Below are positions 663 through 26,355 of a stretch of DNA of 38,007 nt, one piece after another. The DNA is from Chloroflexota bacterium. GTDB taxonomy: Bacteria > Chloroflexota > Anaerolineae > Anaerolineales > Villigracilaceae. The notes under the pieces are model-generated. The model did not search any database. It was given only the letters and a program-made list of their open reading frames with translations, and was not told the DNA's origin. The first letter of the stretch is position 1. Each line of letters begins with the position of its first letter. Made by a program: the position numbers and the translations under genes. The stretch spans positions 1-38,007 of the forward strand of contig JAKBYW010000001.1 of NCBI GenBank assembly GCA_021840275.1, written 5' to 3'.

Positions 663-692
663 TTGAGTGTGATAAAATAAAGTCAATAATAT
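663..692 (+). promoter_or_regulatory. Candidate sigma70-type promoter of the fluoride-riboswitch operon A
   Basis: TTGAGT (663-668), 18-nt spacer, TAATAT (687-692). The predicted start falls at the first G residues of the aptamer (~697). Confidence 0.4.
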
Positions 693-696
693 TTCT

Positions 697-745
697 GGCG
701 ATGAGGCTCGCCAAAACCGTCCTTACCGACTGATAGCCTCTACCG
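697..745 (+). promoter_or_regulatory. Fluoride riboswitch aptamer (crcB motif) #1
   Basis: The sequence is GGCGAUGAGGCUCGCCAAAACCGUCCUUACCGACUGAUAGCCUCUACCG. It has P1 GGCGA/UCGCC, pseudoknot GAGGCU/AGCCUC, a short GUC/GAC hairpin and conserved AAAC and CUGAU segments. It is nearly colinear with the crystallised Thermotoga petrophila aptamer as I recall it. crcB lies downstream in the same operon. Confidence 0.85.
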
Positions 746-779
746 ATTTTCCCCTTTTCGGTAGAGGCTATTTATTTTG
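733..779 (+). terminator. Intrinsic terminator / expression platform of riboswitch #1
   Basis: 14-bp stem ATAGCCTCTACCGA (733-746) / TCGGTAGAGGCTAT (758-771) followed by TTATTTTG. The left arm contains the 3' pseudoknot strand AGCCUCUAC, so aptamer folding and terminator formation are mutually exclusive. It ends 3 nt before the ATG at 782. Confidence 0.85.
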
Positions 780-781
780 CC

Positions 782-2206
782 ATGACGGAACATCTTCTCG
801 AAATCAAAATCACTCAACCAGGTCGTGTGACGGGGCAATACTTTTCCGTGGATGCAGACACGCTTCGTCTCGAAAAGATCGTGCGTCCGGATGAATCCAT
901 CCCCTTTGATGTAGGCATCCTGCCGACAGCGTTAACTCCCTTCAATGAACCGCTTGCCGTCCTTGTCATGGGCAGTCTCTCACATCCCAAAAATACAGAA
1001 TTGGAAGCCAAATTGCTTGGAGCTCTTCAAAGAAAAGAAGAAGCCCCTATTCTTTTGACCATCCCTGTTGTTGACGATTGTGCAATGCAGCGTCTGGATG
1101 AATATGCCGGAGAACAACGCGCTGATATTGTCAGGGTTTTGAGTCGCATCTACCCAGGCGAATGGCATTGGCTGACCGTGGAGGAGGTGGAACCCGCGCT
1201 ACATGCCGCCGCGCTGCGACATCGGCAGAAGCAGGCCGAAGGTAAACTGCCGCATCTTGACCCAGCCTGGCAGCCCATCCGTATGGGCCGCCCCACGGCA
1301 AGTTTTGCAGAGGCAGAACGTTTTACTGCCGCCGAATACACCTTCTATGAATTGCCTCATCGTTTTCAACATTATGTCAGTGAATACCTTGCGCCCGATG
1401 AACGCATCCTTTACGCGGCGCGCCGCCCAGCCATGTACAGCCATCGTAAACACTCCTGGTTTCGTCGAGCGCAATTGCAGGAAGGTGTCCTGATCCTTAC
1501 GAGTCAGCGGCTGATTCAACTAACCGAGCTTATCCCTCCTGACTCAGCGAACGTCCGATATGGGTTTCATGCGACTATCGGTGTACTCGAACGATTGGCA
1601 GAAACAACACTCACATCTCTTGGCCCCAATCTTCTTCTGCGAACCAAATGGAAAGCTGCCGGCGGGGAATCTGCCCTTGAATGGGAATCTCCAAATCATA
1701 CCCGCGCTTCGCTCGATGAATTGATTATGCTTTTGCGTGGATTTCTCACTACTGCAGATGCCTGCGCTCTGCGACGGGCGACTCCGCCCGACCCGCCAGA
1801 AAAACTGCCTTCATTGACAGATACCGCATCAGACGACCCTGAAAAGTTGCTTCTGCTTGATGAGCATTTTTCCAAAGCTGTGACAGATTTCCTCGCCCCC
1901 GATGAGCAAGTCCGCGCGTGGGCGCTTTTACCGAAATGGTCAGATCACCAAAAAACCGATAGGGCGCTTGTTGTAACAGAGAGACGCATCTTCCAGTTGC
2001 CTGACCATTCCATTGACATACCCCTCACGAATATAGCAACATTGGAATACACCAGTTCAATTCTGCAATCGTCGTTAGTAATCAATCATATTCAAGATGG
2101 CAAATCGCAACGAAAAGAGATTTATTTTCCCTATCCTGCACAGGATGCTTTTCGGGATTGTTTTGAAACCGCAAGGCGTTGCATGGCAGTCCTTCCTTTA
2201 TTATGA
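782..2206 (+). CDS. Hypothetical protein: degenerate family-I inorganic-pyrophosphatase-like N-domain plus two bacterial PH-like repeats
   Basis: 474-aa ORF. The N-terminal ~150 aa follow the PPase pattern (IPFDVGILPTALTPFNEPLAVLV vs YPxNYGxIPxTxxxDGDPxDVLV; LLGALQRKEEAPILLTIP; VLSRIYPGEWHWL), but the acidic metal ligands are replaced. There are two segments of the type PDERILYAA...GVLILTSQRLIQL and PDEQVRAWA...RALVVTERRIFQL. Confidence 0.8.
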   Translation: MTEHLLEIKITQPGRVTGQYFSVDADTLRLEKIVRPDESIPFDVGILPTALTPFNEPLAVLVMGSLSHPKNTELEAKLLGALQRKEEAPILLTIPVVDDCAMQRLDEYAGEQRADIVRVLSRIYPGEWHWLTVEEVEPALHAAALRHRQKQAEGKLPHLDPAWQPIRMGRPTASFAEAERFTAAEYTFYELPHRFQHYVSEYLAPDERILYAARRPAMYSHRKHSWFRRAQLQEGVLILTSQRLIQLTELIPPDSANVRYGFHATIGVLERLAETTLTSLGPNLLLRTKWKAAGGESALEWESPNHTRASLDELIMLLRGFLTTADACALRRATPPDPPEKLPSLTDTASDDPEKLLLLDEHFSKAVTDFLAPDEQVRAWALLPKWSDHQKTDRALVVTERRIFQLPDHSIDIPLTNIATLEYTSSILQSSLVINHIQDGKSQRKEIYFPYPAQDAFRDCFETARRCMAVLPLL

Positions 2207-2691
2207 ATTTATTCTTTTGCCCTCAATGTCGCCGACCTTTTGCATCCGTTCAGATATGTCCTGATTGCAGCGTCACTACCGACGCTGTGGCAGATACTTA
2301 CGTTGAAAGGTTATTGGAAACGGTATTATCCAACGAAACCAGTCGCGCAGGGATGGCGGTGGATGTATTAACCAAATGGCTGCATGAACCAAGAGCCATC
2401 CTTCCGTTGACTCTGTTATTGGAAAGAAAGAACGATCCTTATTCATTGGTCATCGGAGCACGAGGCTTGGGATGGCTGGGAGATGCGGCAGCTGTTCCAG
2501 TGTTGGCAAAATTCCTTTTAAACGAGAGCCAGCCCTACGTCGCGCGGGTTGCGGCGGCTGAGGCGCTGGGACGGATTGGTGGAGAAGAGTCCATCCAGGT
2601 ATTGGAGCAAGCGGCGGGAAGTCCGCGCCCCAGTGTGGCAGAGGCAGCATTAGAAAGCCTCCATAAAATAGAACAGGAAATCAAATCATGA
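2203..2691 (+). CDS. Zn-ribbon plus HEAT-repeat (PBS-lyase HEAT-like) protein
   Basis: CPQC...CPDC near the N-terminus, and HEAT-like repeats (ARGLGWLGDAAAVPVLAKFL; ARVAAAEALGRIGGEESIQVLEQA). I chose the ATG at 2203, which overlaps the upstream stop as ATGA. The ORF track starts at 2179. Confidence 0.75.
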   Translation: MNLFFCPQCRRPFASVQICPDCSVTTDAVADTYVERLLETVLSNETSRAGMAVDVLTKWLHEPRAILPLTLLLERKNDPYSLVIGARGLGWLGDAAAVPVLAKFLLNESQPYVARVAAAEALGRIGGEESIQVLEQAAGSPRPSVAEAALESLHKIEQEIKS

Positions 2692-4214
2692 CATTTTATA
2701 GTATCCTTTTCGAAAAGGAAAATATTCAGAAAGAAGCGGCAAAACAACCCGATTTTTTTAGTGACCTGAATTTGGATCAGGTGATAGATGCCATTGCAGC
2801 GCGCAAAAAAGACTATAACCTGAAACCATTCTTCTACAATCACCTGCGCGATGCCGAGACCATCTATTATCGTCATGAAGTAATGCGGGACTTGGAAGAC
2901 AAAGTGTTGATGGCCTGTATCAATGCCTTTGCCGAAAGAATGATCATTGTGCAACGTTACATGAGAATGGTTGAAAAACTGGATTCTCACCACCACAAAC
3001 AAGGCTGGATATTGGAGGCTGTGTTGCTTTATTGCGAGGCTATAACGAATTTTGCACATGAATTGGAAAAAATAAATATAACATCGCGCGGTTTGATCGC
3101 CTTTCACGAATATGTAACAACCTATGTTCATGCCCACACGTTTCAAGCTTTACAGAAGGAAGCGCAAAAGGTCAAGCACGAATTGTCGAGTGTGAAATAC
3201 TGTGTGATCATACAAGAAGGCAGGTTTAGTGTAAGAAGATACGAAGGGGAGACAGACTATAGTATTGAGGTGGAGCAGACCTTCGAGAAATTCAAACAGG
3301 GCGCTGTGAAAAATTACCTGGTTGATCTTTATAAAGGCGCGGGCATGAACCATATCGAAGCGAAAATTCTCGAATTCGTTGCCCTGCTGTATCCCAAACC
3401 TTTTGCCGCGCTCGATCAATTTTGCGCCGTTCACAGCCGATTCATGGATGAGACGATTCTTGTCTTCAATCGCGAGATTCAGTTCTACGTTGCTTATCTT
3501 GAATTCATCGCCGAGATTAAATATAAAGGATTGAATTTTTGTTATCCGCAAATCGGCGTAAATCGTGAGGTGTACGATTACGATGGCTTCGATCTGGCAT
3601 TGGCGAATGCTTTGATTTATACCGAGAAGCCAGTCATCCGCAACGACTTTTATCTCAATAACCCGGAACGTATCATCGTTGTTTCGGGACCGAATCAGGG
3701 CGGCAAGACCACTTTTGCCCGCACCTTTGGACAATTGCACTATCTTGCCAGTCTTGGTTGCCCGGTGCCAGGGCGCGAGGCGCGGCTGTTTCTATTCGAC
3801 CAGATTTTTACCCATTTCGAGAAAGAGGAGGACATTCACAACCTGCGCGGCAAATTGGAGGACGATGTGGCGCGCACTCATGACATCCTTGTCCGCGCCA
3901 CACCAGATAGTATTTTGATAATGAATGAGATTTTCGCATCCACTACCTTAAAGGACGCCGTTTTCTTGAGCAAGGAAATCATGGCGAAAATCATGGAACT
4001 GGATTTGTTGTGCGTGTGGGTGACGTTCATGGATGAGTTGGCTTCCTTGAGCGAGAAAACCATCAGCATGGTCAGCACCGTCGTTCCCGAAAATCCCGCG
4101 ATGAGGGCCTTTAGAATTATCAGAAAGCCTGCTGATGGGCTGGCCTACGCTCTCTCGCTGGCTGAAAAGCATCGATTGACCTACGAACAAATCAAGGAGC
4201 GAATTCAATCATGA
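2688..4214 (+). CDS. MutS-related ATPase (domain III/V only, no mismatch-binding domain), paralog 1
   Basis: Walker A is GPNQGGKTT. The MutS-type Walker B region ILIMNEIFASTT has N in place of the usual D. The N-terminal part is a helical core. Start and stop both overlap neighbours as ATGA. Confidence 0.85.
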   Translation: MTFYSILFEKENIQKEAAKQPDFFSDLNLDQVIDAIAARKKDYNLKPFFYNHLRDAETIYYRHEVMRDLEDKVLMACINAFAERMIIVQRYMRMVEKLDSHHHKQGWILEAVLLYCEAITNFAHELEKINITSRGLIAFHEYVTTYVHAHTFQALQKEAQKVKHELSSVKYCVIIQEGRFSVRRYEGETDYSIEVEQTFEKFKQGAVKNYLVDLYKGAGMNHIEAKILEFVALLYPKPFAALDQFCAVHSRFMDETILVFNREIQFYVAYLEFIAEIKYKGLNFCYPQIGVNREVYDYDGFDLALANALIYTEKPVIRNDFYLNNPERIIVVSGPNQGGKTTFARTFGQLHYLASLGCPVPGREARLFLFDQIFTHFEKEEDIHNLRGKLEDDVARTHDILVRATPDSILIMNEIFASTTLKDAVFLSKEIMAKIMELDLLCVWVTFMDELASLSEKTISMVSTVVPENPAMRAFRIIRKPADGLAYALSLAEKHRLTYEQIKERIQS

Positions 4215-5725
4215 AAGTTTTCCTGATGCATCCCAATCGGGATTTCGACCCAAAGCAAAAACTTCCGTTTAATGAAGACGCATTGACGCAGGACTTGGAA
4301 TTGAACACATTGTTCAACGCAATGGCGCAGGGAGATGAATTTCTGTTTGATGTGGCCAAACAATCTGTTTTGTCCAGTTTGGATTCACCCGATGCCATTC
4401 GCTATCGCCAGGAGATTCTCAGGGATTGCCTGAAAAATCCCGCCATTGTGAGGGAAATCTACAGTATCCCGATAGAGTCAATTGAAAATAAACACAGGCA
4501 TTGGATGGGAATTTTTTCAAAATACCCAAGCAGTATATTAAACGGCGCAGTCGAAATGCTGGAGATGTTCGTCGTCCTGCTCAAAAAATTAAAGCGGATT
4601 GCCGATGAACATGCACAGGAATTCGAATCGCCGGGCTTTCGAAGATTCTTTGCGATGATCCAGCAGGAGTTGGATGATGAGTATTTCGCCGTTGTCGAAA
4701 ATCATCTCAAAGTGCTGAAGTTTCGTAACGGTGTTCTCATCAGCGCTGAACTGGGAAATGGAAACGAGGGAACAAATTACATCCTTCGCAAAACCAATTA
4801 CGACAACCAGAATTGGGTCAAGCGCATCCTTGCGAGAAAATCCCAGGCCTACTCCTATTCCCTTCCTCCCCGCGATGAAGCGGGTGCGCAGGCGCTTGAG
4901 AATTTGAGGAGCAGAGGACTCAACTTGGTGGCCAATGCGGTGGCTCAATCCGCCGATCACATTGATAGTTTTCTCAATAACCTGCGGCTGGAACTGGCTT
5001 TTTACATCGGCTGTTTGAATTTATCCGAGCAGCTCGCCCAATTGGGGGGACCTATTGCATTTCCCCAACCTGCGCCTTCTGACGAGCGCCGACATTCGTT
5101 TACAAGTTTATACGATGTTGCATTGGCGTTGACCATGAAGCAAAAGGTTGTGGGCAACGATGTGAATGCTGATGGCAAAGATCTCGTCATTATCACAGGC
5201 GCCAACCAGGGCGGCAAATCCACTTTTCTGCGAAGTATTGGCCTGGCCCAGCTAATGACGCAGTGCGGGATGTTCGTGCCGGCGAAATCGTTTTCCGCCA
5301 GCTTGATTAAGGGACTTTTCACACACTACAAACGGGAAGAAGACACATCCATGCAAAGCGGTAAGTTCGATGAAGAACTTGGCAGGATGAGTGTGATTGT
5401 GGATCATATCACGCAGGATTCGATGATATTGTTCAATGAGTCGTTTGCCGCAACCAATGAAAGGGAAGGCTCGGAGATTGCGAGACAGATCGTGATGGCC
5501 TTGCTTGAAGAGCGAGCCAAAGTCTTTTATGTCACGCATTTATATGAGCTTGCATACGGTTTTCATGCGAAACAATTGGATAATGCCATTTTCCTGCGGG
5601 CGGATAGAAAATCGGATGGTCTTCGAACCTACAAATTAATCGAGGGAGAACCCCTGCAAACCAGCTATGCCGTGGATGCCTATAATAAGATATTCAGGTT
5701 GAACGAACATGAAAAAGACATTTGA
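4211..5725 (+). CDS. MutS-related ATPase (domain III/V only), paralog 2
   Basis: Walker A is GANQGGKST. The Walker B region MILFNESFAATN again reads NE instead of DE. YVTHLYELA follows. The start overlaps the upstream stop as ATGA. Confidence 0.85.
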   Translation: MKVFLMHPNRDFDPKQKLPFNEDALTQDLELNTLFNAMAQGDEFLFDVAKQSVLSSLDSPDAIRYRQEILRDCLKNPAIVREIYSIPIESIENKHRHWMGIFSKYPSSILNGAVEMLEMFVVLLKKLKRIADEHAQEFESPGFRRFFAMIQQELDDEYFAVVENHLKVLKFRNGVLISAELGNGNEGTNYILRKTNYDNQNWVKRILARKSQAYSYSLPPRDEAGAQALENLRSRGLNLVANAVAQSADHIDSFLNNLRLELAFYIGCLNLSEQLAQLGGPIAFPQPAPSDERRHSFTSLYDVALALTMKQKVVGNDVNADGKDLVIITGANQGGKSTFLRSIGLAQLMTQCGMFVPAKSFSASLIKGLFTHYKREEDTSMQSGKFDEELGRMSVIVDHITQDSMILFNESFAATNEREGSEIARQIVMALLEERAKVFYVTHLYELAYGFHAKQLDNAIFLRADRKSDGLRTYKLIEGEPLQTSYAVDAYNKIFRLNEHEKDI

Positions 5726-5780
5726 TCATTTCTGGTATTCAATTTCAAACCGCTTGAGAAAGGTTGTTTTGCCAAAAGAC

Positions 5781-6155
5781 ATGGAAACGTTTTTGTTGAT
5801 TTCAATAGGTGCGATTTTTGGGGCTAATTTAAGATATTGGGTTGGCGGCTGGGCGGCCACCCGCTTTGGGACTGCATTCCCTTACGGGACTCTGATTATT
5901 AACCTGACCGGCAGTTTTGTACTGGGTCTTTTTATAACACTGGCGACTGAGCGCTTATTGCTGGACCCGCGCTGGCGGTTAGTGGTCGCAATCGGCTTTC
6001 TCGGCGGCTATACAACATTTTCATCGTATACTTTCGAGAGTATGAGTCTGATTCTCAATAATCAATGGCTGCCTGGCTTGTTCGATCTCTTTGGGAGCGC
6101 TTTTTTGGGGGGAGTGGCGGTGTTGTTAGGTATTTTATTAGCAAGAGCCATTTAA
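5781..6155 (+). CDS. crcB: Fluoride ion channel CrcB/FluC
   Basis: FPYGTLIINLTGSFVLG and GFLGGYTTFSSY motifs with 4 predicted TM segments. The ORF track starts at 5709, but that 24-aa extension is atypical for CrcB, so I prefer METFLL at 5781. Confidence 0.85.
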   Translation: METFLLISIGAIFGANLRYWVGGWAATRFGTAFPYGTLIINLTGSFVLGLFITLATERLLLDPRWRLVVAIGFLGGYTTFSSYTFESMSLILNNQWLPGLFDLFGSAFLGGVAVLLGILLARAI

Positions 6156-6169
6156 TCTAAGGAGGCACA

Positions 6170-7432
6170 ATGTCACCGGAACAATTGATGGGAAAGAAAG
6201 TCAAACGGCTTAGCATTTATATCGGCGAAAGTGATCAGTGGCGCGGCAAGGCGCTGTACGTTGCATTAATCGAAACTCTTCGAGCACAGGGAATGGCTGG
6301 CGCAACCGTCTCACGCGGGATGGCGGGGTTTGGCGCGCATTCCGTGGTCCACACCGCCGCGATCCTGCGGCTCTCGCTCGATCTGCCGTTGATCATCAAT
6401 GTGATCGATTCTCCAGAGAAAATCAAGAATGTCCTCAAGATCATTGCCCCAATGGTGGGTGAGGGTTTGATCATTCTTGAAGATGTTGAAGTGGTCAAAT
6501 ATACACATCGTTATTTGAATCCCCTCCCAACCGATAAACCTGTTTCAGAAGTGATGACCAAAAAAATTATTACGCTGGCCGATACCATGTCCGTGGCAGA
6601 AGCATGGGAAAAGATGCTCAAGCATTTGCTCAAAGCTTTACCAGTTTTGAACAAACACGGTGATGTGGTCGGGATGTTGACCGATGAAGATTTGCTCGAA
6701 CGCGCTGGTCTGCAACAGCATTTGTCTGTGGCTGAACGAATGGATGAGCAAACGCTTCAAACAGAGATAACAGCATTGCGAAGCAGTCCGTTCAAAGTAG
6801 CGGATGTAATGACTTCCCCGGCAGTCACAATTCGAGGAGATGAGCCTTTGGGCGTTGCCACAGCACGCATGGTTGAACACGGGATCAAACGACTGCCTGT
6901 TCTCGATGGAAACGGAAAATTAATCGGCGTGCTTTCGCGTGTAGATGTGTTACGGCAGGTGGTTAGTGAGGAAGCGAAGAAACGCGCAGCGAAAGCCCCC
7001 TCCGGCGCAGCCCATACGGTGGGTGACATCATGATCTCTGAAATTCCCACTATTCATGAGGACGCACAACTGGCAGATGTGATCGCCAGCTTCCTGGAGG
7101 CCGGGACCCGCCGCCTGATCGTAACCGACGATGCTGGCCGACCCCTGGGTCTGATTAGTGATGCGGATGTAGTAACGCGGGTACAACCCAGCGCGCGACG
7201 CGGTGTTTTGCAAGCCCTACGTGGCAAACGTAAAGTTTCAGATGAAAAGACATCTGCCGCGCAATTGATGTCTCGTGAAGTGTTGAGTGCAACTCTAGAA
7301 ATATCCCTGACAGACGCCGCGCATCTTATGCTCTCACAAAAGCGCAAATGGATGGTGGTTGTGGATGCTGATGGCAAAGCTGTCGGTCTGGTGGATCGCC
7401 AAATTTTATTCAAGGCACTTTCAGGTCATTAA
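6170..7432 (+). CDS. DUF190 (PII-like, CrcB-associated) domain fused to four CBS domains
   Basis: The N-terminus LSIYIGESDQWRGKALYVALIETLRAQGMAGATVSRGMAGFG matches the DUF190 pattern, followed by four CBS-like units (e.g. VMTKKIITL, VMTSPAVTI, IMISEIPTI, LMSREVLSA). AGGAGG lies 5 nt upstream. Confidence 0.85.
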   Translation: MSPEQLMGKKVKRLSIYIGESDQWRGKALYVALIETLRAQGMAGATVSRGMAGFGAHSVVHTAAILRLSLDLPLIINVIDSPEKIKNVLKIIAPMVGEGLIILEDVEVVKYTHRYLNPLPTDKPVSEVMTKKIITLADTMSVAEAWEKMLKHLLKALPVLNKHGDVVGMLTDEDLLERAGLQQHLSVAERMDEQTLQTEITALRSSPFKVADVMTSPAVTIRGDEPLGVATARMVEHGIKRLPVLDGNGKLIGVLSRVDVLRQVVSEEAKKRAAKAPSGAAHTVGDIMISEIPTIHEDAQLADVIASFLEAGTRRLIVTDDAGRPLGLISDADVVTRVQPSARRGVLQALRGKRKVSDEKTSAAQLMSREVLSATLEISLTDAAHLMLSQKRKWMVVVDADGKAVGLVDRQILFKALSGH

Positions 7433-7746: not shown

Positions 7747-7761
7747 AATAATGCAAATTGA

Positions 7762-7930
7762 AACCTCGTTAGGCCAGGCGGCTGCAAGGTACACAGGCCA
7801 TTGCCCTGGAACGTCGAAAGACGCCAAAGGGTAGACCAGGTGAAGTCGGATTAAGGCTTCATTCAAAGTGGCTGGGATGTAATGTTACTCCCCTACGACG
7901 CGCAGTGCCAAAGCTAAACCAGGAGGTGGT
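7762..7930 (+). promoter_or_regulatory. M-box (ykoK leader) Mg2+ riboswitch
   Basis: Conserved M-box blocks are present: CGUUAGGCCAGGC, GUCGAAAGACGCCAAAGGGUAGACCAG, GGAUUAAGG, GCUGGGAUG and CAGUGCCAAAGCUAAACC, colinear with the B. subtilis mgtE leader as recalled. It lies upstream of mgtA. Confidence 0.85.
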
Positions 7931-7960
7931 TGTGGGTGTATTTTGTATACATTTAACCGG

Positions 7961-7992
7961 CCTCCTGTTAATTAACGGGAGGTTTTCTTTTT
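7961..7992 (+). terminator. Intrinsic terminator 1 of the mgtA leader (M-box expression platform)
   Basis: Stem CCTCCTGTT/AACGGGAGG followed by TTTTCTTTTT. The left arm CCTCC can alternatively pair with GGAGG (7922-7926) at the 3' end of M-box P1. Confidence 0.8.
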
Positions 7993-8511: not shown

Positions 8512-11145
8512 ATGGGATTCTTTACAACGATAATCACTACTCCCCAGCGCTGGGCAAATGCCACAAAGGGGAACAATATTCAAATATCAAAAGCATTAGC
8601 GGATAGCGCCCGGTTAGATGCCGCCGCTGTGCTCGAAAAACTAGGCACGTCTCAGAACGGACTCACAGTTCTTGATGTTGAAGCCCGCTTTGAACAGTAT
8701 GGGCCCAACGAGGTTGCCAAGGAGAAACACCAGACTTGGCTGATGCGCTTGATTGAAAACATCAAAAATCCGCTGGTTATTCTTCTGTCTGTACTCGGCT
8801 TGGTCTCTTATCTGACCGGTGATGTCCCCGGAACAATCGTGATCTTTATCATGGTTTTGCTGGGCATCGTGTTGCGCTACATACAGGAAAGCCGGGCTGA
8901 TTCTGCTGCAGCGAGGCTCAAGGCAATGGTAAGCACAACTGCTACGGTGGTACGCGCTGGAAAACGTATCGAAATTCCATTGAAGGAGTTGGTCCCCGGG
9001 GATATCGTTCATCTTTCAGCTGGCGATATGGTTCCCGGTGATGTACGGTTGCTCTCAGCAAAGGATCTGTTCTTGAACCAGGCCGCACTGACCGGGGAGT
9101 CCATGCCAGTGGAGAAGTTGCCTGCTGTTGTTACAGACGAGGCACTGAATCCACTCGAGATGCCAAATCTCTGCTTCCTTGGGTCAAACATTGAAAGCGG
9201 CACCGGTCTGGCAGTTGTCGTTCAAACGGGTAGCCAAACCTATTTTGGGTCCCTGGCAGGTAGCATTGTAGGTCAGCGACAATTGACCAGCTTTGACAAA
9301 GGTGTAAATGGTTTTACCTGGTTAATGATTGGTTTTATGGCCATTATGGTCCCCTTGGTGTTTCTGTTCAACGGCTTGAGCAAGCATAACTGGGTAGAAG
9401 CTTTCCTATTTGCGCTGGCAGTCGCAGTTGGACTGACGCCTGAGATGCTGCCAATGATCGTCACTGTCAATCTGTCCAAAGGCGCGCTTTCCATGTCAAA
9501 GAAAAAGGTGATCGTTAAACGATTGAACGCTATTCAGAATTTCGGTGCCATGGATGTTCTTTGCACGGACAAGACTGGCACGATCACAGAAGGCAAGATT
9601 GTACTGGAGAAGTACATGGATGTGAAAGGCAACACCAGCGAACAGGTACTTCATTACGGATATATGAACAGCTACTATCAGACAGGCTTGAAGAATCTGA
9701 TGGATGAAGCCATTCTCAATCATGTTAATCTCAACGATGATTTACAAGTGGATGAGCTTTACCGAAAGATCGACGAACTGCCCTTTGACTTCCAACGCAA
9801 ACGCATGTCTGTGATCGTAGAGAACAACCAAAACCAACACATCTTGATCTGCAAGGGCGCAGTCGAGGAAATCATGCAACTTTCCACACACGTGGAGGTT
9901 GGCGGTGAGGTTCTGGAAGTCCTGCCGGAACATGACGAACACCGCAAAGAGCGTGTGAAGCAGTTGAACTCCGAGGGCTTCCGTGTCATCGCGGTTGCTT
10001 ATCGGATCTTCTCCGGTGACAATGATGAACCGCACTACAAGGTGGCTGATGAGTCAAACCTGACCCTGCTCGGATACATGGCCTTCCTGGACCCACCGAA
10101 AGCGACCGCATCCGCCGCACTGGACAAACTCCATTTTCACAATGTGGTCGTCAAGATCCTGACCGGCGATAACGACATTGTCACAGCCAACATTTGTGAG
10201 CAGGTCGGCCTGTCCGTCGATCGGATACTACTCGGTCCGGAAATCGAACAAATGGATGATGTACAACTAGCGGAAGCTGCCGAGGCAATCACCGTTTTTG
10301 CCAAACTCTCCCCAACCCACAAAGAACGCATCATTCGCGCTTTGCAAGGGAAAGGTCACGTTGTCGGGTTCATGGGCGATGGGATTAACGATGCGCCAGC
10401 GCTCAAAACTGCCGATGTGGGCATTTCTGTGAACAGCGCAGTCGACATTGCCAAGGAGTCGTCCGACATCATCCTGCTTGAAAACAGCCTTCTGGTCCTG
10501 GAAGAAGGCGTCATCGAAGGTCGCAAGGTCTTTGGTAACATCATCAAATACATCAAGATGGCAGCCTCTTCCAACTTCGGGAACATGTTCAGCGTGCTGG
10601 GCGCCAGTCTATTCTTACCTTTTCTGCCGATGCTGCCTATTCAGGTCTTAACCAACAACCTATTGTATGACTTCTCGCAGACCGCGATCCCGACAGATGA
10701 AGTCGATCAAGAGTGGCTGACCAAACCGCGCAAATGGGAAATCAATTCGCTACGCCGCTTCATCATTTACATTGGCCCAATCAGTTCGATCTTCGATTAC
10801 ATGACGTACTTCATTATGTTGTATGTCTTCAATTGCTGGAGCAACCCTACACTGTTCCAGACGGGCTGGTTCGTAGAGTCTTTGTTCACCCAAACGTTGA
10901 TCATTCACGTTATCCGCACGAACAAGATTCCTTTCATTCAAAGCCGGGCGAGCAAATCGTTGATCTTTACTTCGCTCATTATTGTCGCAGTTGGCGCCTG
11001 GTTGACTGTTTCTCCATTGGCGTCTACATTAGGGTTTGTGACCTTGCCGCCTCTATACTGGCCCTTGCTGGCCGGCATGTTGATTGTTTATATCATCCTT
11101 ACACAGGTTGTGAAAGTCTGGTTTATTCGGCGGTTTGCTGAATAG
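8512..11145 (+). CDS. mgtA: Mg2+-importing P-type ATPase MgtA/MgtB
   Basis: 877 aa with TGES, CTDKTGTIT, TGDN and MGDGINDAPALK motifs and a P3-type 10-TM layout. GGAGG RBS. M-box leader upstream. Confidence 0.9.
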   Translation: MGFFTTIITTPQRWANATKGNNIQISKALADSARLDAAAVLEKLGTSQNGLTVLDVEARFEQYGPNEVAKEKHQTWLMRLIENIKNPLVILLSVLGLVSYLTGDVPGTIVIFIMVLLGIVLRYIQESRADSAAARLKAMVSTTATVVRAGKRIEIPLKELVPGDIVHLSAGDMVPGDVRLLSAKDLFLNQAALTGESMPVEKLPAVVTDEALNPLEMPNLCFLGSNIESGTGLAVVVQTGSQTYFGSLAGSIVGQRQLTSFDKGVNGFTWLMIGFMAIMVPLVFLFNGLSKHNWVEAFLFALAVAVGLTPEMLPMIVTVNLSKGALSMSKKKVIVKRLNAIQNFGAMDVLCTDKTGTITEGKIVLEKYMDVKGNTSEQVLHYGYMNSYYQTGLKNLMDEAILNHVNLNDDLQVDELYRKIDELPFDFQRKRMSVIVENNQNQHILICKGAVEEIMQLSTHVEVGGEVLEVLPEHDEHRKERVKQLNSEGFRVIAVAYRIFSGDNDEPHYKVADESNLTLLGYMAFLDPPKATASAALDKLHFHNVVVKILTGDNDIVTANICEQVGLSVDRILLGPEIEQMDDVQLAEAAEAITVFAKLSPTHKERIIRALQGKGHVVGFMGDGINDAPALKTADVGISVNSAVDIAKESSDIILLENSLLVLEEGVIEGRKVFGNIIKYIKMAASSNFGNMFSVLGASLFLPFLPMLPIQVLTNNLLYDFSQTAIPTDEVDQEWLTKPRKWEINSLRRFIIYIGPISSIFDYMTYFIMLYVFNCWSNPTLFQTGWFVESLFTQTLIIHVIRTNKIPFIQSRASKSLIFTSLIIVAVGAWLTVSPLASTLGFVTLPPLYWPLLAGMLIVYIILTQVVKVWFIRRFAE

Positions 11146-16092: not shown

Positions 16093-17307
16093 TCATTCAG
16101 TTTCTTTCTTTACTGGAAGTCGCCGGGTTTGCTTGGCTACGATGAAGAATAAAGGCACGGCGGCCAGTTGCGCAACGACCGAGAAGATTATCAGTGCTGG
16201 CAGCGAGATGCCGTACAGAAGCCCAATCACCGCGCTGCCCAGAAACCAGAAGATACCGTAGCCTGCTGTGAACAATCCGTATGCGGAAGCGCGGCGCTCG
16301 GGTGCAACCATCGGCGCTACTGCCGCGGGAATAATGGATTCATGCACTCCCATGCCCAAACCCCAGATCGCCATCCCAATAAGCGCGGTCCAAAAACCGC
16401 CCAGGAAAACCAACGGCGCAAAGAGTGCGGCGATGATTGTCAAAACAATCAGGATGGAAAAACCAAAACGGTCATAAAGCCGTCCGAATACCAGCGAACC
16501 AGCCCCGCTCACGCCCATCGCCACAGCATAAAATACCGGAATAACGTCCAGTGAAACAATGGAGGCTTGCGCGAAATGGTAGGCAATCAGCGGAAAATCC
16601 GCGAAGCCTGCCGCGACCAGTGCCGCGCCCACCAGATACAGCCAAAAGACGCGCGGCAGTCCACGCGGTTGAACATTCGGGACGTTTGTCTCCATTTCTT
16701 CAGGGTGCGGATAAGTTCGGTAGGCCAACAGGAGCAAGCTAAAGTTAATGACTGCGGGCACGGCCAGTGCCGCGAAGGCGAGATGATAATCGCCACGCAT
16801 CGCCAAGACCCACGCGACCACCAGGGGTCCAAACAGGGCGCCAAATTGATCCAGCGCTTCGTGCAAGCCAAATACCCATCCAATGCCGAGCTGTTTACCA
16901 GCATGTGATAGCATCACATCGCGTGGTGGATTGCGTGTGGCTTTTCCCACGCGTTCGAGAATAATCAGTACCGCCGCCATCGGCCAATTCCCCGCTAAAG
17001 CCAGCAGTGGTACAGATGCCATCTGGACGGCATAGCCAATAATCGTGATGGGCCAGAATTTCTGGGTGCGGTCAGCGAGTCGTCCCGAGACAAGCCGCAG
17101 GCCATAGCCCAGCAACTCTCCAAAGCCTGTCACAAGGCCGACAACGAAAGCACTCGCCTGCAAATGTGCGAGATAAGGACCAATAATGCTACGAGAGCCT
17201 TCGTATGTAAAATCAGCGAAGAAACTCAGGATACCAATCAAGAGTACAAACTTGAAGGCCATCTGTTGCACAGTGGTTTGTTCGGAAACCGCCGAATTAT
17301 TTTTCAT
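16093..17307 (-). CDS. MFS transporter
   Basis: 404 aa with ~12 hydrophobic segments and MFS motif A (GRLADRTQKF). AGGAG RBS. Confidence 0.85.
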   Translation of the reverse strand: MKNNSAVSEQTTVQQMAFKFVLLIGILSFFADFTYEGSRSIIGPYLAHLQASAFVVGLVTGFGELLGYGLRLVSGRLADRTQKFWPITIIGYAVQMASVPLLALAGNWPMAAVLIILERVGKATRNPPRDVMLSHAGKQLGIGWVFGLHEALDQFGALFGPLVVAWVLAMRGDYHLAFAALAVPAVINFSLLLLAYRTYPHPEEMETNVPNVQPRGLPRVFWLYLVGAALVAAGFADFPLIAYHFAQASIVSLDVIPVFYAVAMGVSGAGSLVFGRLYDRFGFSILIVLTIIAALFAPLVFLGGFWTALIGMAIWGLGMGVHESIIPAAVAPMVAPERRASAYGLFTAGYGIFWFLGSAVIGLLYGISLPALIIFSVVAQLAAVPLFFIVAKQTRRLPVKKETE

Positions 17308-17344: not shown

Positions 17345-17381
17345 CAAAAAAGCTTCTACCAGCAGGATTGTGGTAGAAGCT
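17345..17381 (-). terminator. Intrinsic terminator / expression platform of fluoride riboswitch #2
   Basis: On the minus strand: AGCTTCTACCA (17381-17371) / TGGTAGAAGCT (17361-17351) 11-bp stem followed by TTTTTTG. The left arm is the 3' pseudoknot strand of the aptamer. It lies 38 nt upstream of the MFS start. Confidence 0.8.
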
Positions 17382-17440
17382 ATCAGTCGGAAAAACGACG
17401 AAGGTGTTTTGTTCAACGCTGACGAGCTTCATCGTCAACG
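17372..17440 (-). promoter_or_regulatory. Fluoride riboswitch aptamer (crcB motif) #2
   Basis: The minus-strand RNA is CGUUGACGAUGAAGCUCGUCAGCG..AACAAAAC..CGUCGUUUUUCCGACUGAUAGCUUCUACC. It has the same architecture as #1, with compensatory changes in P1 (GACGA/UCGUC) and in the pseudoknot (GAAGCU/AGCUUC). The segment CCGACUGAUAGC is identical to #1. Confidence 0.75.
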
Positions 17441-17470
17441 TGCCTGTGAATATTTGGTTTGTTGATGAAT

Positions 17471-21221: not shown

Positions 21222-22673
21222 CTAGTGAGACTGTAGCAGCTCAACCAACAAATTCCATACTCGCGTCACAGATGGAATATACAACTTCTCGTTTGGAGAG
21301 TGTGCATTCTTTATCGTTGGACCGAGCGAGATCATGTCCATCTCTCCGCATCGTTCGCCGATAATTCCGCACTCCAGACCTGCATGGATGATCTTGACTT
21401 CGGGCTTTTGACCAAAAAGTTTCTCATATGTTTCGACTGACTTCTTTAATAGGTCTGAATCCATGTTTGGTTTCCAGCCGGGATATCCGTCTATATGATT
21501 TACCTGCGCTCCTGCCAGTTTAGCGACAGCCTCTATGCGGCGGCTCAATTCATCAAGGCGCGACATCATGGAACTACGCTGGCTGGATGTAATCTGTAAC
21601 GAGTCGTCCATCATTTCAACTTTTGCCAGATTATTGGATGTTTCTACAAACCCTTCAATGCTATCCGACATGTGAGCAACGCCGTGAGGCAGTGCCATCA
21701 GCAGCCGGATAATTTTTTCTGTCTCTACAATGCTGGTCACTTCATAGTTGTTGCCATCTTTTTCCGATATGAGTCTTATTCGCAGATCAGGATCAGACCT
21801 GGAAAACTCCTCCAGCAACTCTTTTTCAAGCAAGGCGATTTGGTCTTTGCAATCACCCAGCTTTTCCTCCGGGCAGACAAAGACCGCTTCGGCTTGACGC
21901 GGGATGGCGTTATGAGCAGTGCCGCCTTGAATTAAGCTCAATTGAATTGGAACGGTTCTCTGGATGCGGTCCAAGGTCCGCGCCAGAATCTGGTTGGCAT
22001 TGCCGCGATGTTTATGGATTTCCGCGCCGGAGTGTCCACCTTGCAATCCATCGACCACGATGCGTAATCTTTTATGATTAGGAGATGGCAATTCACAAGA
22101 AAGGGGTAATTGGATTTGAGTCGTGATTCCACCCGCACACCCAACGAAAAACTCGCCTTCATCTTCCGAGTCGAGATTGATCAAGGTCTTGCCGCGAATC
22201 AAGTTTGGATCAAGATGAGACGCGCCTCCGATACCGACTTCCTCTTCGACAGTGAAAAGCAATTCAAGAGGTGGATGGAATACGTTCGTATCTTCGACCA
22301 ACGCCAGAGCGAGAGCAATTGCGATTCCATTATCCGCGCCGAGAGTCGTCTTGTCTCCCCGAAGCCAGTCACCATCTACAATGCAACGAATGGGATCGCG
22401 CAGGAAGTCATGGGGGGAATCTGATGTTTTTTCACAGACCATGTCCATGTGTCCCTGGAGCACAACCGCCGCTCTGTCTTCATATCCCGCACTGGCTGGA
22501 ACTTGTATGACCAGATTTCCAGCAGAGTCGGTTAGGGTCGAGCAGCGAAGCTCCATAGCCCATTCTTGCAGCCATGCGGAAATTTTTTGCTCGTGTTTTG
22601 TCCCGCGCGGGACGGAAGAAATTTGTTCGAAACGTTCGAGAATACGTTCAATGGGTTCCATGTGTTTATCCAT
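21222..22673 (-). CDS. pepD: Aminoacyl-histidine (Xaa-His) dipeptidase PepD, M20 family
   Basis: 483 aa with GHMDMV, GADNGIAIA and EEVG motifs and a PepD-like length. Confidence 0.9.
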   Translation of the reverse strand: MDKHMEPIERILERFEQISSVPRGTKHEQKISAWLQEWAMELRCSTLTDSAGNLVIQVPASAGYEDRAAVVLQGHMDMVCEKTSDSPHDFLRDPIRCIVDGDWLRGDKTTLGADNGIAIALALALVEDTNVFHPPLELLFTVEEEVGIGGASHLDPNLIRGKTLINLDSEDEGEFFVGCAGGITTQIQLPLSCELPSPNHKRLRIVVDGLQGGHSGAEIHKHRGNANQILARTLDRIQRTVPIQLSLIQGGTAHNAIPRQAEAVFVCPEEKLGDCKDQIALLEKELLEEFSRSDPDLRIRLISEKDGNNYEVTSIVETEKIIRLLMALPHGVAHMSDSIEGFVETSNNLAKVEMMDDSLQITSSQRSSMMSRLDELSRRIEAVAKLAGAQVNHIDGYPGWKPNMDSDLLKKSVETYEKLFGQKPEVKIIHAGLECGIIGERCGEMDMISLGPTIKNAHSPNEKLYIPSVTRVWNLLVELLQSH

Positions 22674-26192: not shown

Positions 26193-26230
26193 AATTAAAA
26201 ACCTCTACTGAAGAACATATTCAGTAGAGG
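26193..26230 (-). terminator. Intrinsic terminator after the metallophosphoesterase gene
   Basis: On the minus strand: CCTCTACTGAA/TTCAGTAGAGG 11-bp stem followed by TTTTTAATT. Confidence 0.75.
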
Positions 26231-26355
26231 CCATCAGCTATGGAGCTAGCGGTTGAATAAATTCAGAGCGAGCCTCATCGCTCAAACCTATAAAATTTTA
26301 CCACGACCCTTGCCTCAGGTGATCAAAAGCCATTCAACGGGAGTTGAGAGAACGG

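What the first reader, a model, noticed from the sequence alone, without database searches (positions are those of the whole stretch)
782..5725. Four translationally coupled unknown genes heading a fluoride-riboswitch operon: candidate undescribed fluoride-response module
ORFs 782-2206, 2203-2691, 2688-4214 and 4211-5725 are linked by three consecutive ATGA stop/start overlaps. This implies coupled translation and probably a stoichiometric complex. They encode a degenerate pyrophosphatase-like/PH-like protein, a Zn-ribbon-HEAT protein and two MutS-domain-V ATPase paralogs that lack any mismatch-binding domain. They sit between a fluoride aptamer and crcB plus DUF190-CBS. As I recall, the original comparative surveys of crcB-motif RNAs listed MutS-related genes, enolase and pyrophosphatase among associated genes. 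To my knowledge the MutS-related association was never explained mechanistically. Here the MutS-like pair is embedded in a defined four-gene cassette. This suggests a dedicated ATP-driven machine responding to fluoride damage or sensing, not DNA mismatch repair.
Basis: partly seen in the sequence, partly recalled or inferred. Interest (0 to 1): 0.85.

Follow-up and report, generated by a model that had tools for sequence, protein, structure and literature searches.

The report
Fluoride-switched operon with MutS4 ATPase pair
A fluoride-sensing RNA switch turns on six genes in an Anaerolineae-type bacterium; the conserved core is a known but unexplained pair of MutS-like ATPases (MutS4A/B), and the two "partner" genes in front of it are separate fluoride-response genes joined on in one lineage.

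Summary
A fluoride aptamer with an overlapping terminator (688-780) precedes six same-strand genes. Three ATGA stop/start overlaps link the first four, and the domain calls are correct.

In 72 related loci from more than 10 phyla, the conserved unit is the MutS-like pair, not the four-gene set:
- G3 and G4 are always adjacent, and 62 of 68 junctions carry the 4-nt overlap.
- An aptamer lies within 260 nt upstream in 43 of 63 loci.

The pair fits the published MutS4A/MutS4B subfamily (Lin, Nei & Ma 2007). Its link to the crcB motif was reported in 2010. G1 (a catalytically dead pyrophosphatase fold plus two PH-like domains) and G2 (zinc ribbon plus HEAT) each occur elsewhere behind their own aptamers. 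The full cassette is confined to an Anaerolineae subclade.

New details on the pair:
- It has a MutS2-like lever-clamp-ATPase fold with no mismatch-binding or nuclease domain.
- Walker B Asp is replaced by Asn in both subunits.
- The MutS S-T signature is replaced by G-K.
- The H-loop His is lost only in the A subunit.

Function remains unknown. My best guess is a fluoride-induced asymmetric heterodimeric clamp ATPase. Interest is moderate.

The parts
663..690 (+). sigma-70-like promoter candidate (TTGAGT-16-AATAAT) just before the aptamer
   Evidence: 9 of 12 consensus positions match. The number of such sites in the region is no higher than in shuffles, so this is only a candidate.
688..749 (+). 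fluoride riboswitch aptamer (crcB motif, RF01734)
   Evidence: 41.2 bits against a gathering score of 34, E 3.2e-8, full-length model match; 66.3 bits with my own model R1.
732..780 (+). intrinsic terminator (15-bp stem, 11-nt loop, UUUAUUUU) that competes with the 3' strand of the aptamer; expression platform of an ON switch
   Evidence: MFE -41.7 kcal/mol, z = -8.05. Sequence read. The simple scan missed it because its loop limit is 8 nt.
782..2206 (+). G1: pseudo-pyrophosphatase domain (residues 1-155) plus two bacterial PH-like domains, 474 aa
   Evidence: weak PPase and bPH hits. AF2 pLDDT 85, family I PPase fold; none of the 14 E. coli PPase active-site residues is kept; about 122 clusters, all named ones Chloroflexota; first gene after a fluoride aptamer in 9 of 10 contexts.
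2203..2691 (+). G2: four-Cys zinc ribbon plus HEAT-like repeats, 162 aa
   Evidence: HEAT_2 E 3.8e-18; matches alphaRep-type HEAT repeats. G2-like ORFs in 13 of 72 MutS4 loci, at variable positions.
2688..4214 (+). G3 = MutS4A-type subunit: lever, small clamp and ABC-type ATPase; Walker A GPNQGGKTT, Walker B N-E, H-loop His replaced by Phe
   Evidence: MutS_V 66.7 bits; aligns over its full length with the G4 family; best PDB sequence match is the T. thermophilus MutS2 core; motif counts; more than 150 50%-identity clusters with E below 1e-118, nearly all 484-560 aa long.
4211..5725 (+). G4 = MutS4B-type subunit: same architecture; Walker A GANQGGKST, Walker B N-E, H-loop His kept
   Evidence: MutS_V 94.8 bits. 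AF2 pLDDT 81, pTM 0.80, full-length Foldseek matches to MSH2, MutS and MutS2; homologs at 50-95% identity across many phyla; motif counts.
5709..6155 (+). crcB (Fluc-type fluoride channel)
   Evidence: PF02537 87.6 bits. TIGR00494 97.4 bits against a cut-off of 80.45.
6170..7432 (+). DUF190 domain plus four CBS domains; last gene of the operon
   Evidence: DUF190 122.7 bits, CBS 172.6 bits in 4 stretches. The same gene follows crcB in L002, L003, L044, L066 and L080.

Best explanation
This is a fluoride-inducible operon. With low fluoride, transcription stops at the terminator at 732-780. With fluoride bound, the aptamer holds the terminator's 5' arm and RNA polymerase reads through 782-7432.

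The operon strings together several modules, each of which also occurs elsewhere behind its own fluoride aptamer:
1. G1, a catalytically dead pyrophosphatase fold fused to two PH-like domains.
2. G2, a zinc-ribbon and HEAT-repeat protein.
3. G3 and G4, the MutS4A/MutS4B pair.
4. crcB, followed by DUF190-CBS.

Only G3-G4 is an obligate unit. The two are made in coupled fashion through a conserved 4-nt overlap. I infer that they form a 1:1 heterodimer shaped like the core of MutS2, with two long lever helices, a small clamp tip and an ABC-type ATPase head. They have no mismatch-binding domain, connector domain or nuclease.

The two composite ATP sites are built unequally. The B subunit keeps the H-loop His, and the A subunit always has Phe there. 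Both subunits carry Asn instead of the Mg-coordinating Walker B Asp, and a Gly-Lys in place of the MutS Ser-Thr trans signature.

My committed mechanism is inference, at about one chance in three. The heterodimer is a nucleotide-driven clamp or switch that acts on a universal nucleic-acid or nucleoprotein substrate, such as stalled replication, recombination or translation complexes, when fluoride poisons Mg-dependent phosphoryl transfer. Its weakened Mg coordination would keep the switch working, or resistant to ADP-MgFx trapping, at high fluoride.

G1 and G2 are lineage-specific accessory fluoride-response proteins, not fixed subunits.
For: Shown.
- Aptamer and competing terminator.
- G3 and G4 are adjacent in all 69 loci where DNA upstream of G4 is available. 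The (A/G)TGA overlap is present in 62 of 68 junctions.
- An aptamer lies within 260 nt upstream of G3 in 43 of 63 loci, and at 0.5-2 kb with intervening genes in 9 more.
- The Rfam curated threshold confirms 13 aptamers in a 12-locus sample, at the same coordinates as my model.
- The loci span Chloroflexota, Actinomycetota, Desulfobacterota, Nitrospirota, Bacillota, Alpha- and Gammaproteobacteria, Acidobacteriota, Eremiobacterota, Dormibacterota and the archaeon Methanocella.
- The pair often has an aptamer of its own, and a new aptamer starts right after G4 in L012, L023, L047 and L054. It therefore needs no fixed partner gene.
- Fold: full-length Foldseek matches to MSH2, MutS and MutS2, including the T. 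thermophilus MutS2 core at TM 0.56 normalised to the target. G3 and G4 align over 474 columns.
- Motifs: Asn for Asp in 60/60 and 65/67; Gly-Lys for Ser-Thr; Phe for the H-loop His in 60/60 A subunits; His kept in 66/67 B subunits. T. thermophilus MutS2 keeps DE, STF and TH.
- One 1026-aa A-B fusion exists.
- Independence of G1 and G2.
- Decay of G1 and G2 in relatives: the L044 internal deletion and the P0228 G1-half fused to G3.

Literature. MutS4A and MutS4B are adjacent, with the stop codon overlapping the start codon, and have only the MutSac domain. mutS is listed among crcB-motif genes.
Against: - No experiment and no multimer model supports the heterodimer. It is inferred from coupling, paralogy and one fusion that could be a frameshift artefact.
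- The substrate is unknown. The clamp tip is the least confident part of the model (pLDDT 43-48 for residues 172-215). By my own hand count, the tip of G3 carries no net positive charge, which is not typical of a DNA clamp.
- The link between Asn-for-Asp and fluoride is my own idea. It rests only on the engineered E. coli MutS D693N entry (PDB 3k0s) and on my memory of the paper describing it.
- G1 and G2-like genes do turn up near MutS4 pairs in distant lineages (L012, L018, L075, L080, L082). A looser physical partnership cannot be excluded.
- My aptamer model R1 was trained on these loci and is more permissive than Rfam. The hits in L016, L063 and L025 were not confirmed at the Rfam threshold.
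Confidence: 0.6

Rival explanations
1. One reading: G1, G2, G3 and G4 are stoichiometric subunits of one dedicated four-protein fluoride-damage machine.
For: - Three consecutive ATGA overlaps in the window, and again in L066.
- The same four genes in the same order occur in L002 and L066.
- About 19 of the closest 120 G4 clusters have the same longest-contig length as a G1 homolog. This suggests the cassette recurs within an Anaerolineae subclade, though only L002 was checked directly.
- G1-like and G2-like genes are in the same long operon as a MutS4 pair in the distant locus L075.
- G2-like ORFs directly flank the pair in L012 and L018.
Against: - Only 2 of 72 genome loci carry the full set.
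- 43 of 63 loci have the aptamer directly in front of G3.
- G1 stands alone behind its own aptamer in L073, L076 and L078.
- L080 has G1-G3-G4 without G2.
- In L081 the pair is on the other strand, and in L082 two unrelated genes separate G1 from it.
- G1 and G2 are deleted or decayed in L044 and P0228 while G3-G4 stay intact.
- The G1 family is confined to Chloroflexota, while the pair spans more than 10 phyla.
Confidence: 0.12
2. MutS4A/B is a protein-directed remodelling or reactivating ATPase. It would strip tightly bound Mg-fluoride-phosphate complexes from poisoned enzymes such as enolase or pyrophosphatase, and would not act on nucleic acids.
For: - NCBIfam names a MutS-type ATPase of the same size (508-position profile, ATPase domain at the same place) as the lysine 5,6-aminomutase reactivase ATPase KamC. 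G4 matches it at 81.7 bits.
- Enolase genes occur in 15 of the 72 loci and PPase-like genes in several, often behind their own aptamers.
- In this window a PPase-derived protein is the first gene of the operon.
Against: - The KamC match is far below its cut-off of 300 bits and no stronger than the matches to MutS1 and MutS2.
- It covers only the ATPase domain.
- No paper on such a reactivase was found.
- The lever and clamp elements typical of polymer-binding MutS proteins are retained.
- Enolase or PPase are not consistently next to the pair.
Confidence: 0.15
3. MutS4A/B is a cytoplasmic ATPase partner that gates or energises the CrcB (Fluc) exporter, possibly together with DUF190.
For: crcB follows G4 directly in about 20 of 72 loci, usually followed by DUF190 genes. 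The MutS head domain is an ABC-type ATPase.
Against: - Many pairs form a two-gene unit with their own aptamer and have no crcB in the 10-kb flanks.
- Neither protein matched a membrane-protein or transporter family.
- By established knowledge, Fluc channels are passive.
- The lever and clamp architecture has no counterpart in transporter ATPases.
Confidence: 0.05
4. Ordinary DNA mismatch repair MutS genes, or an anti-phage or mobile-element ATPase system that happens to lie here.
For: Source databases annotate homologs as 'DNA mismatch repair ATPase MutS'. The patchy distribution suggests horizontal transfer.
Against: - There is no MutS_I or MutS_II domain.
- The S-T-F signature is not kept.
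- The Walker B Asp is lost.
- No significant PADLOC match was found.
- Direct control by a fluoride aptamer in most loci.
Confidence: 0.03

Closest known systems
MutS4A/MutS4B subfamily (Lin, Nei & Ma 2007, PMC2190696)
   Same: - Only the C-terminal MutS ATPase ('MutSac') domain is detectable by sequence.
- Two paralogs, A and B, are adjacent.
- The stop codon of A overlaps the start codon of B.
- The distribution is patchy across distant bacteria (including Chloroflexus and Thermoanaerobacter) and a few archaea, suggesting horizontal transfer.
- The function has not been studied.
All of these hold for G3/G4 and their 72 relatives.
   Different: I compared no reference MutS4 sequence, so placement in that clade is inferred from features. 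That paper does not mention fluoride, the riboswitch or the active-site substitutions.
'mutS' / MutS-related genes of the crcB-motif (fluoride riboswitch) regulon (Weinberg et al. 2010, PMC2864571; Baker et al. 2012 from my own knowledge, paper not held)
   Same: A MutS-like gene lies directly downstream of a fluoride aptamer with an overlapping terminator.
   Different: In 2010 the gene was read as DNA repair. Here it is shown to be an A/B pair lacking mismatch recognition, with a distinctive ATP site. In this window two further fluoride-regulon genes precede it in the same transcript.
MutS2 (Smr endonuclease; the ribosome-collision sensor of B. subtilis)
   Same: It has the same core of lever, clamp and ATPase without mismatch-binding or connector domains. 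The T. thermophilus MutS2 core is the best sequence-profile match to G3 (E 2e-23) and a top fold match to G4. MutS2 on a collided disome (7qv3) is also among the fold matches.
   Different: The proteins end right after the ATPase domain and show no Smr domain hit, and no KOW region follows as in MutS2 (own knowledge). They form a pair of paralogs where MutS2 is a homodimer. MutS2 keeps D-E, S-T-F and T-H where MutS4 has N-E, G-K and, in the A subunit, T-F.
Family I inorganic pyrophosphatase (for G1)
   Same: The whole PPase fold is recovered for residues 1-155 (TM about 0.64 normalised to the target). More distant G1 homologs pass the Pfam PF00719 hit.
   Different: None of the 14 E. coli active-site residues is kept in the window protein, and the D-x-D-x-x-D metal site is degenerate in the whole family. 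Two PH-like domains are fused on. It is a pseudoenzyme.
E. coli MutS D693N (PDB 3k0s)
   Same: It carries the same Asp-to-Asn change of the Walker B residue that holds the catalytic Mg2+. The entry appears among the fold matches.
   Different: It is an engineered mutant that, as I recall, is defective in fast ATP switching and in repair. In MutS4 the Asn is the fixed natural state in both subunits.

Membership tests
Fluoride riboswitch (RF01734) | Score at or above the Rfam gathering threshold over the full model | tested here: met
   41.2 bits against 34, model positions 1-64.
Fluoride riboswitch (RF01734) | Expression platform consistent with a fluoride ON switch (terminator overlapping the aptamer's 3' strand) | tested here: met
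   15-bp hairpin at 732-772 plus a U-tract, z = -8.05. The arm at 732-746 lies inside the aptamer.
Fluoride riboswitch (RF01734) | Fluoride binding and fluoride-dependent read-through | not testable with these tools
   Needs in-line probing or a reporter assay.
MutS family | MutS domain V (ABC-type ATPase) above the Pfam threshold | tested here: met
   G3 66.7 bits and G4 94.8 bits against a cut-off of 30.2.
MutS family | Lever (domain III) and clamp (domain IV) elements | tested here: met
   two long helices (106-169 and 223-278) flank a small beta tip. Full-length Foldseek alignments to MutS, MSH and MutS2 (E down to 3.5e-19). The tip itself has low confidence.
MutS1 (mismatch repair MutS) | N-terminal mismatch-binding domain I and connector domain II | tested here: not met
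   no MutS_I or MutS_II hit. The proteins are about 505 aa, and the fold match starts in the core domain.
MutS1 (mismatch repair MutS) | Canonical ATP-site residues (Walker B D-E, S-T-F signature, H-loop His) | tested here: not met
   N-E in 60/60 and 65/67; G-K for S-T; His to Phe in all A subunits.
MutS2 | C-terminal Smr nuclease domain | tested here: not met
   both proteins end with the ATPase domain, and there is no Smr hit.
MutS4A/MutS4B | Two adjacent paralogs, with the stop codon of A overlapping the start codon of B | tested here: met
   for the window; 62 of 68 junctions in other genomes.
MutS4A/MutS4B | Only the MutSac domain recognisable by sequence; patchy bacterial and archaeal distribution | tested here: met
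MutS4A/MutS4B | Phylogenetic grouping with the reference MutS4 sequences of Lin et al. | not tested
Family I inorganic pyrophosphatase (G1) | PPase fold | tested here: met
   TM about 0.64 normalised to the target, over about 160 columns.
Family I inorganic pyrophosphatase (G1) | Catalytic and metal-binding residues (E20, K29, E31, R43, Y51, Y55, D65, D67, D70, D97, D102, K104, Y141, K142 of E. coli PPase) | tested here: not met
   0 of 14 are kept in the window protein.
   the full set occurs in 2 of 72 loci, and G1 and G2-like genes occur independently.
CrcB/Fluc | Equivalog model above cut-off | tested here: met
   TIGR00494 97.4 bits against 80.45.

The most novel reading that the evidence does not exclude
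MutS4A/B is a nucleotide switch specifically adapted to fluoride. Asn in place of the Mg-binding Walker B Asp, and a trans-acting Lys in place of the Ser-Thr signature, would let it cycle with weak Mg2+ coordination. It would then resist, or even read out, ADP-Mg-fluoride complexes that jam ordinary P-loop enzymes. The induced clamp would then clear fluoride-stalled replication, recombination or translation complexes. In Anaerolineae the dead pyrophosphatase-PH protein and the HEAT adaptor would act as targeting factors. That would be a new class of damage response: repair of fluoride-jammed machines, not export of the ion.
Probability: 0.12. Interest if true: 0.8.

Novelty: new variant of a known kind. 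Interest (0 to 1): 0.5.

Why it matters
MutS-like genes have been listed in the fluoride riboswitch regulon since 2010, and I found no function for them in the open literature. This analysis narrows the question to a clean two-gene unit, MutS4A/B, that is widespread and tightly riboswitch-linked. It predicts a heterodimer architecture and identifies a fixed, unusual ATP-site signature that can be mutated and assayed directly.

The analysis also shows that a dead pyrophosphatase-PH protein and a zinc-ribbon-HEAT protein are fluoride-regulon members in their own right. It warns against building a four-subunit model on one lineage's operon. If the pair turns out to repair or unjam fluoride-poisoned machinery, fluoride resistance would extend beyond export and enzyme replacement.

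Tried and rejected
- Anti-phage defence: PADLOC gave no significant match for G1, G3 or G4, and only generic HEAT and P-loop noise. Rejected.
- Specific kinship with the KamC reactivase ATPase: 81.7 bits against a cut-off of 300, no better than MutS1 or MutS2, and ATPase domain only. No literature found. Kept only as an analogy.
- Baker et al. 2012 (PMC4140402) could not be read. Statements about it rest on my own knowledge.
- Six literature searches for a MutS-fluoride mechanism found only the 2010 listing.
- The consensus terminator scan missed the riboswitch terminator because of its 11-nt loop. It was found by folding.
- tblastn alone under-counted G2-like genes. An HMM over all ORFs raised the count from 5 to 13 loci.
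- Domain fusions as functional hints: the best 150 representatives of G3 are nearly all 484-560 aa. The outliers are one A-B fusion and two unannotated extensions. No informative fusion was found.
- Not done: a structure of G3, any multimer prediction, and a domain-level fold search of G1's PH-like domains.

Full report
**Observation.** Rfam places a fluoride aptamer at 688-749 on the + strand, at 41.2 bits against a gathering score of 34. The stretch 688-790 folds into the P1 stem plus a 15-bp hairpin at 732-772, followed by UUUAUUUU. The energy is -41.7 kcal/mol, z = -8.05, and none of 200 shuffles folds as well. The hairpin's 5' arm is the 3' strand of the aptamer. This is the usual layout of a terminator-type ON switch. 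A weak promoter-like site lies at 663-690.

Six same-strand ORFs follow:
- G1, 782-2206
- G2, 2203-2691
- G3, 2688-4214
- G4, 4211-5725
- crcB, 5709-6155
- DUF190 plus four CBS domains, 6170-7432

ATGA stop/start overlaps sit at 2203, 2688 and 4211.

**What the proteins are.**

*G1.* It gives only sub-threshold PPase and bPH hits. Its AF2 model, built on 62 homologs (pLDDT 85), matches family I pyrophosphatases over residues 1-155 (TM about 0.64 normalised to the target). Two beta-sandwich-plus-helix domains of PH type follow. None of the 14 active-site residues of E. coli pyrophosphatase is kept, and the D-x-D-x-x-D metal site is degenerate across the family. G1 is a pseudoenzyme.

*G2.* It is a four-Cys zinc ribbon plus HEAT-like repeats.

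*G3 and G4.* Both have MutS domain V above the Pfam threshold and no domain I or II. They are 28% identical over the ATPase head. Their family profiles align over 474 columns, so they are full-length paralogs. The AF2 model of G4 (pLDDT 81, pTM 0.80) has two long lever helices (106-169 and 223-278) flanking a small, low-confidence beta tip, followed by the ATPase head. Foldseek aligns the whole chain to MSH2, MutS and MutS2. The T. thermophilus MutS2 core gives TM 0.56 normalised to the target. The same MutS2 core is the best sequence-profile match to the G3 family. Both proteins end with the ATPase domain, and neither has a Smr domain.

**Related loci.** One scan of species-representative genomes with G4 returned 72 loci at 34-80% identity. 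They come from Chloroflexota, Actinomycetota (mostly Solirubrobacterales), Desulfobacterota, Nitrospirota, Bacillota, Alpha- and Gammaproteobacteria, Acidobacteriota, Eremiobacterota, Dormibacterota and the archaeon Methanocella.

- tblastn shows a G3 homolog immediately upstream of G4 in every locus where that DNA is present, 69 of 69.
- The 4-nt (A/G)TGA overlap is present in 62 of 68 junctions.
- A covariance model built from 54 aptamers of these loci found 149 matches in 1.2 Mb.
- In 43 of 63 loci with a visible G3 start, an aptamer ends within 260 nt upstream of G3.
- In 9 more loci the aptamer lies 0.5-2 kb upstream, with one or two genes between. These include G1, a G2-like gene, an MFS transporter and a dihydroxy-acid dehydratase-like gene (my reading of the sequence).
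- The remaining 11 loci have no aptamer within 2 kb.
- Rfam's curated threshold confirmed 13 aptamers in a 12-locus sample at the same coordinates. It did not confirm my hits in L016, L063 and L025, so my model is somewhat permissive.
- In several loci a new aptamer starts right after G4 (L012, L023, L047, L054). The pair is therefore often a self-contained two-gene unit.

**G1 and G2 are not part of the conserved unit.** Among the 72 loci the full G1-G2-G3-G4 set is present only in L002 and L066. L044 keeps an internally deleted G1. P0228 is a G1 N-terminal half joined by junk sequence to an intact G3.

The G1 family has only about 122 clusters, and all named members are Chloroflexota. Many of the closest members have the same longest-contig length as G4 homologs. 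This suggests the cassette recurs inside an Anaerolineae subclade, though only L002 was checked directly. More distant G1 homologs show a range of contexts:
- In Leptolinea tardivitalis and two metagenome lineages they are single genes, each 100-170 nt downstream of its own aptamer.
- In L080 G1 is followed directly by G3-G4 without G2.
- In L081 the pair is on the other strand, 5 kb away.
- In L082 a ClpP/NfeD gene and a methyltransferase gene lie between G1 and the pair.
- In L075 a G1-like gene and two G2-like genes sit in a 14-gene operon that ends with a dynamin-like GTPase and a MutS4 pair.

G1 is the first gene after an aptamer in 9 of the 10 contexts examined. G2-like ORFs occur in 13 of 72 loci: before G3 (L012), after G4 (L018), or on the opposite strand behind a separate aptamer (L038, L039).

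The window's operon is therefore a chain of modules that each belong to the fluoride regulon independently. The neighbourhoods are fluoride islands. Judged by eye from one representative sequence per ORF cluster, they also carry CrcB, DUF190, enolase, formate-hydrogenlyase-like membrane subunits, MFS transporters, histidine phosphatases and dynamin-like GTPases. Families that also occur in the window or the JGI loci have Pfam support.

**Comparison with what is known.** Lin, Nei and Ma (2007) defined a MutS4 subfamily with these features:
- Only the MutSac domain is present.
[quoted passage not shown] - The function was not studied.

G3/G4 fit every listed feature. I could not fetch a reference sequence, so clade membership is inferred. 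Weinberg et al. (2010) already listed mutS among the genes downstream of crcB-motif RNAs and read it as DNA repair. From my own knowledge, Baker et al. (2012) listed MutS-related genes in the fluoride regulon; that paper could not be opened. Six full-text searches found no mechanistic account. The family and the association are thus known, and the function is not.

| Site (E. coli MutS) | A subunit (G3 type) | B subunit (G4 type) |
|---|---|---|
| Walker B Asp (D693) | Asn in 60/60 | Asn in 65/67 |
| Catalytic Glu | kept | kept |
| Ser-Thr of the S-T-F trans signature | Gly 60/60, Lys 59/60 | Gly 67/67, Lys 63/67 |
| H-loop His | Phe in 60/60 | His in 66/67 |
| R697 equivalent | lost | lost |

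T. thermophilus MutS2 keeps D-E, S-T-F and T-H, so these changes are specific to MutS4. The engineered E. coli MutS D693N is in the PDB (3k0s). As I recall, it weakens Mg2+ coordination and slows ATP switching. One representative (P0284, 1026 aa) is an in-frame A-B fusion. It could be real, or it could be a frameshift at the overlap. The family comprises more than 150 50%-identity clusters with E below 1e-118, nearly all of uniform length. A further 1058 clusters have E up to 1e-30; that count includes B-type and other MutS proteins.

**Mechanism.** Shown:
- Riboswitch control by sequence and structure.
- An obligate, translationally coupled A/B pair.
- A MutS2-like core fold.
- Fixed asymmetry and unusual metal-site chemistry.
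- Independence from any fixed partner gene.
- Wide phyletic spread at high identity.

Inferred:
- A 1:1 heterodimer with one competent and one degenerate composite ATP site.
- A universal substrate, because no lineage-specific partner is conserved.

My best guess, at about one in three, is a clamp or switch that acts on nucleic-acid or nucleoprotein complexes stalled when fluoride poisons Mg-dependent phosphoryl transfer. On this view the Asn-for-Asp site keeps the switch usable at high fluoride.

The rivals are:
- A protein reactivase for fluoride-poisoned enzymes. The analogy is the KamC name in NCBIfam, but the match is weak and covers only the head.
- A partner of the CrcB channel. crcB follows G4 in about 20 loci, but many pairs have none nearby.
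- Classical mismatch repair or phage defence. Both are rejected on domain content, motifs and the absence of PADLOC hits.

**Verdict.** The MutS-like pair is a real, recurrent and still unexplained member of the fluoride regulon, and it belongs to a named family (MutS4A/B). The four-gene cassette is a lineage-specific arrangement, not a conserved machine. I rate the novelty as a new variant of a known kind and the interest as 0.5. A specialist would not be surprised by the association. The clean two-gene unit and its fixed ATP-site signature do make an open question directly testable.

Noticed in passing
window 26218-26291 (-), then 24442-26139 (-), 22666-24402 (-), 21222-22673 (-): A second fluoride aptamer (Rfam 37.4 bits) heads a separate operon. 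Its genes are a 565-aa P-type-ATPase-like protein that keeps DKTG and GDGxND but has only about three hydrophobic segments, a dynamin-family GTPase with a DUF6062-like tail, and an M20 peptidase.
   Followed up: partly
window 17368-17445 (-), upstream of MFS gene 16093-17307 (-): A third fluoride-aptamer-like element has an insertion in P2 and its own terminator hairpin. It scores 34.6 bits with my model but falls below the Rfam gathering score. The same MFS family is the first gene after an aptamer in 7 related loci.
   Followed up: partly
window 7758-7932 (+), 7959-7984 (+), 8512-11145 (+): An M-box magnesium riboswitch (122 bits) with a terminator, followed by an MgtA-type P-type ATPase, lies directly downstream of the fluoride operon. 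Magnesium import sits next to a response to a magnesium-complexing ion.
   Followed up: no
L003, L038, L047, L075, L081 and 13 other loci; window 22666-24402 (-): A dynamin-like GTPase family, often with DUF6062-type Cys-rich partners, is present in 18 of 72 MutS4 loci. It is the first gene after a fluoride aptamer 8 times. This is a second unexplained P-loop NTPase in the fluoride regulon.
   Followed up: partly
L056 8529-9014 (-), L046 7674-8141 (-): Short (about 160 aa) PPase-like ORFs lie directly after aptamers in Solirubrobacterales and also lack the catalytic residues. L029 13258-13914 (-) keeps nearly all of them (13 of 14). Dead pyrophosphatase folds seem to recur in fluoride regulons.
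   Followed up: partly
L066 6454-9452 and 9495-12514; L046, L048, L056: Some genomes carry two MutS4A/B pairs in one locus. They are in tandem in L066 and on opposite strands in L046, L048 and L056.
   Followed up: no
P0284 (1026 aa): A single polypeptide joins a MutS4A-type half to a MutS4B-type half starting at residue 501 (53% identical to G4). It is either a natural fusion or a frameshift at the ATGA overlap.
   Followed up: partly
L075 3182-3248, 3260-3307, 3644-3708 (+): Two or three aptamer matches lie in series ahead of a 14-gene operon. By Pfam family it runs His_Phos, MFS, HIT, CBS, an unannotated ORF, HEAT, a G1-like gene, two unannotated ORFs, a zinc-ribbon-HEAT gene, DUF6062, an unannotated ORF, a dynamin-like GTPase and a MutS4 pair.
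   Followed up: no
Solirubrobacterales loci such as L072 1709-2836, L060 5735-7363, L036 7123-8055: Three ORF clusters that by eye look like a MoxR-type AAA ATPase, a DUF58 protein and a DUF4129-like protein recur near the aptamers in actinobacterial loci. One of them is the first gene after an aptamer 3 times. No profile search was run on them.
   Followed up: no
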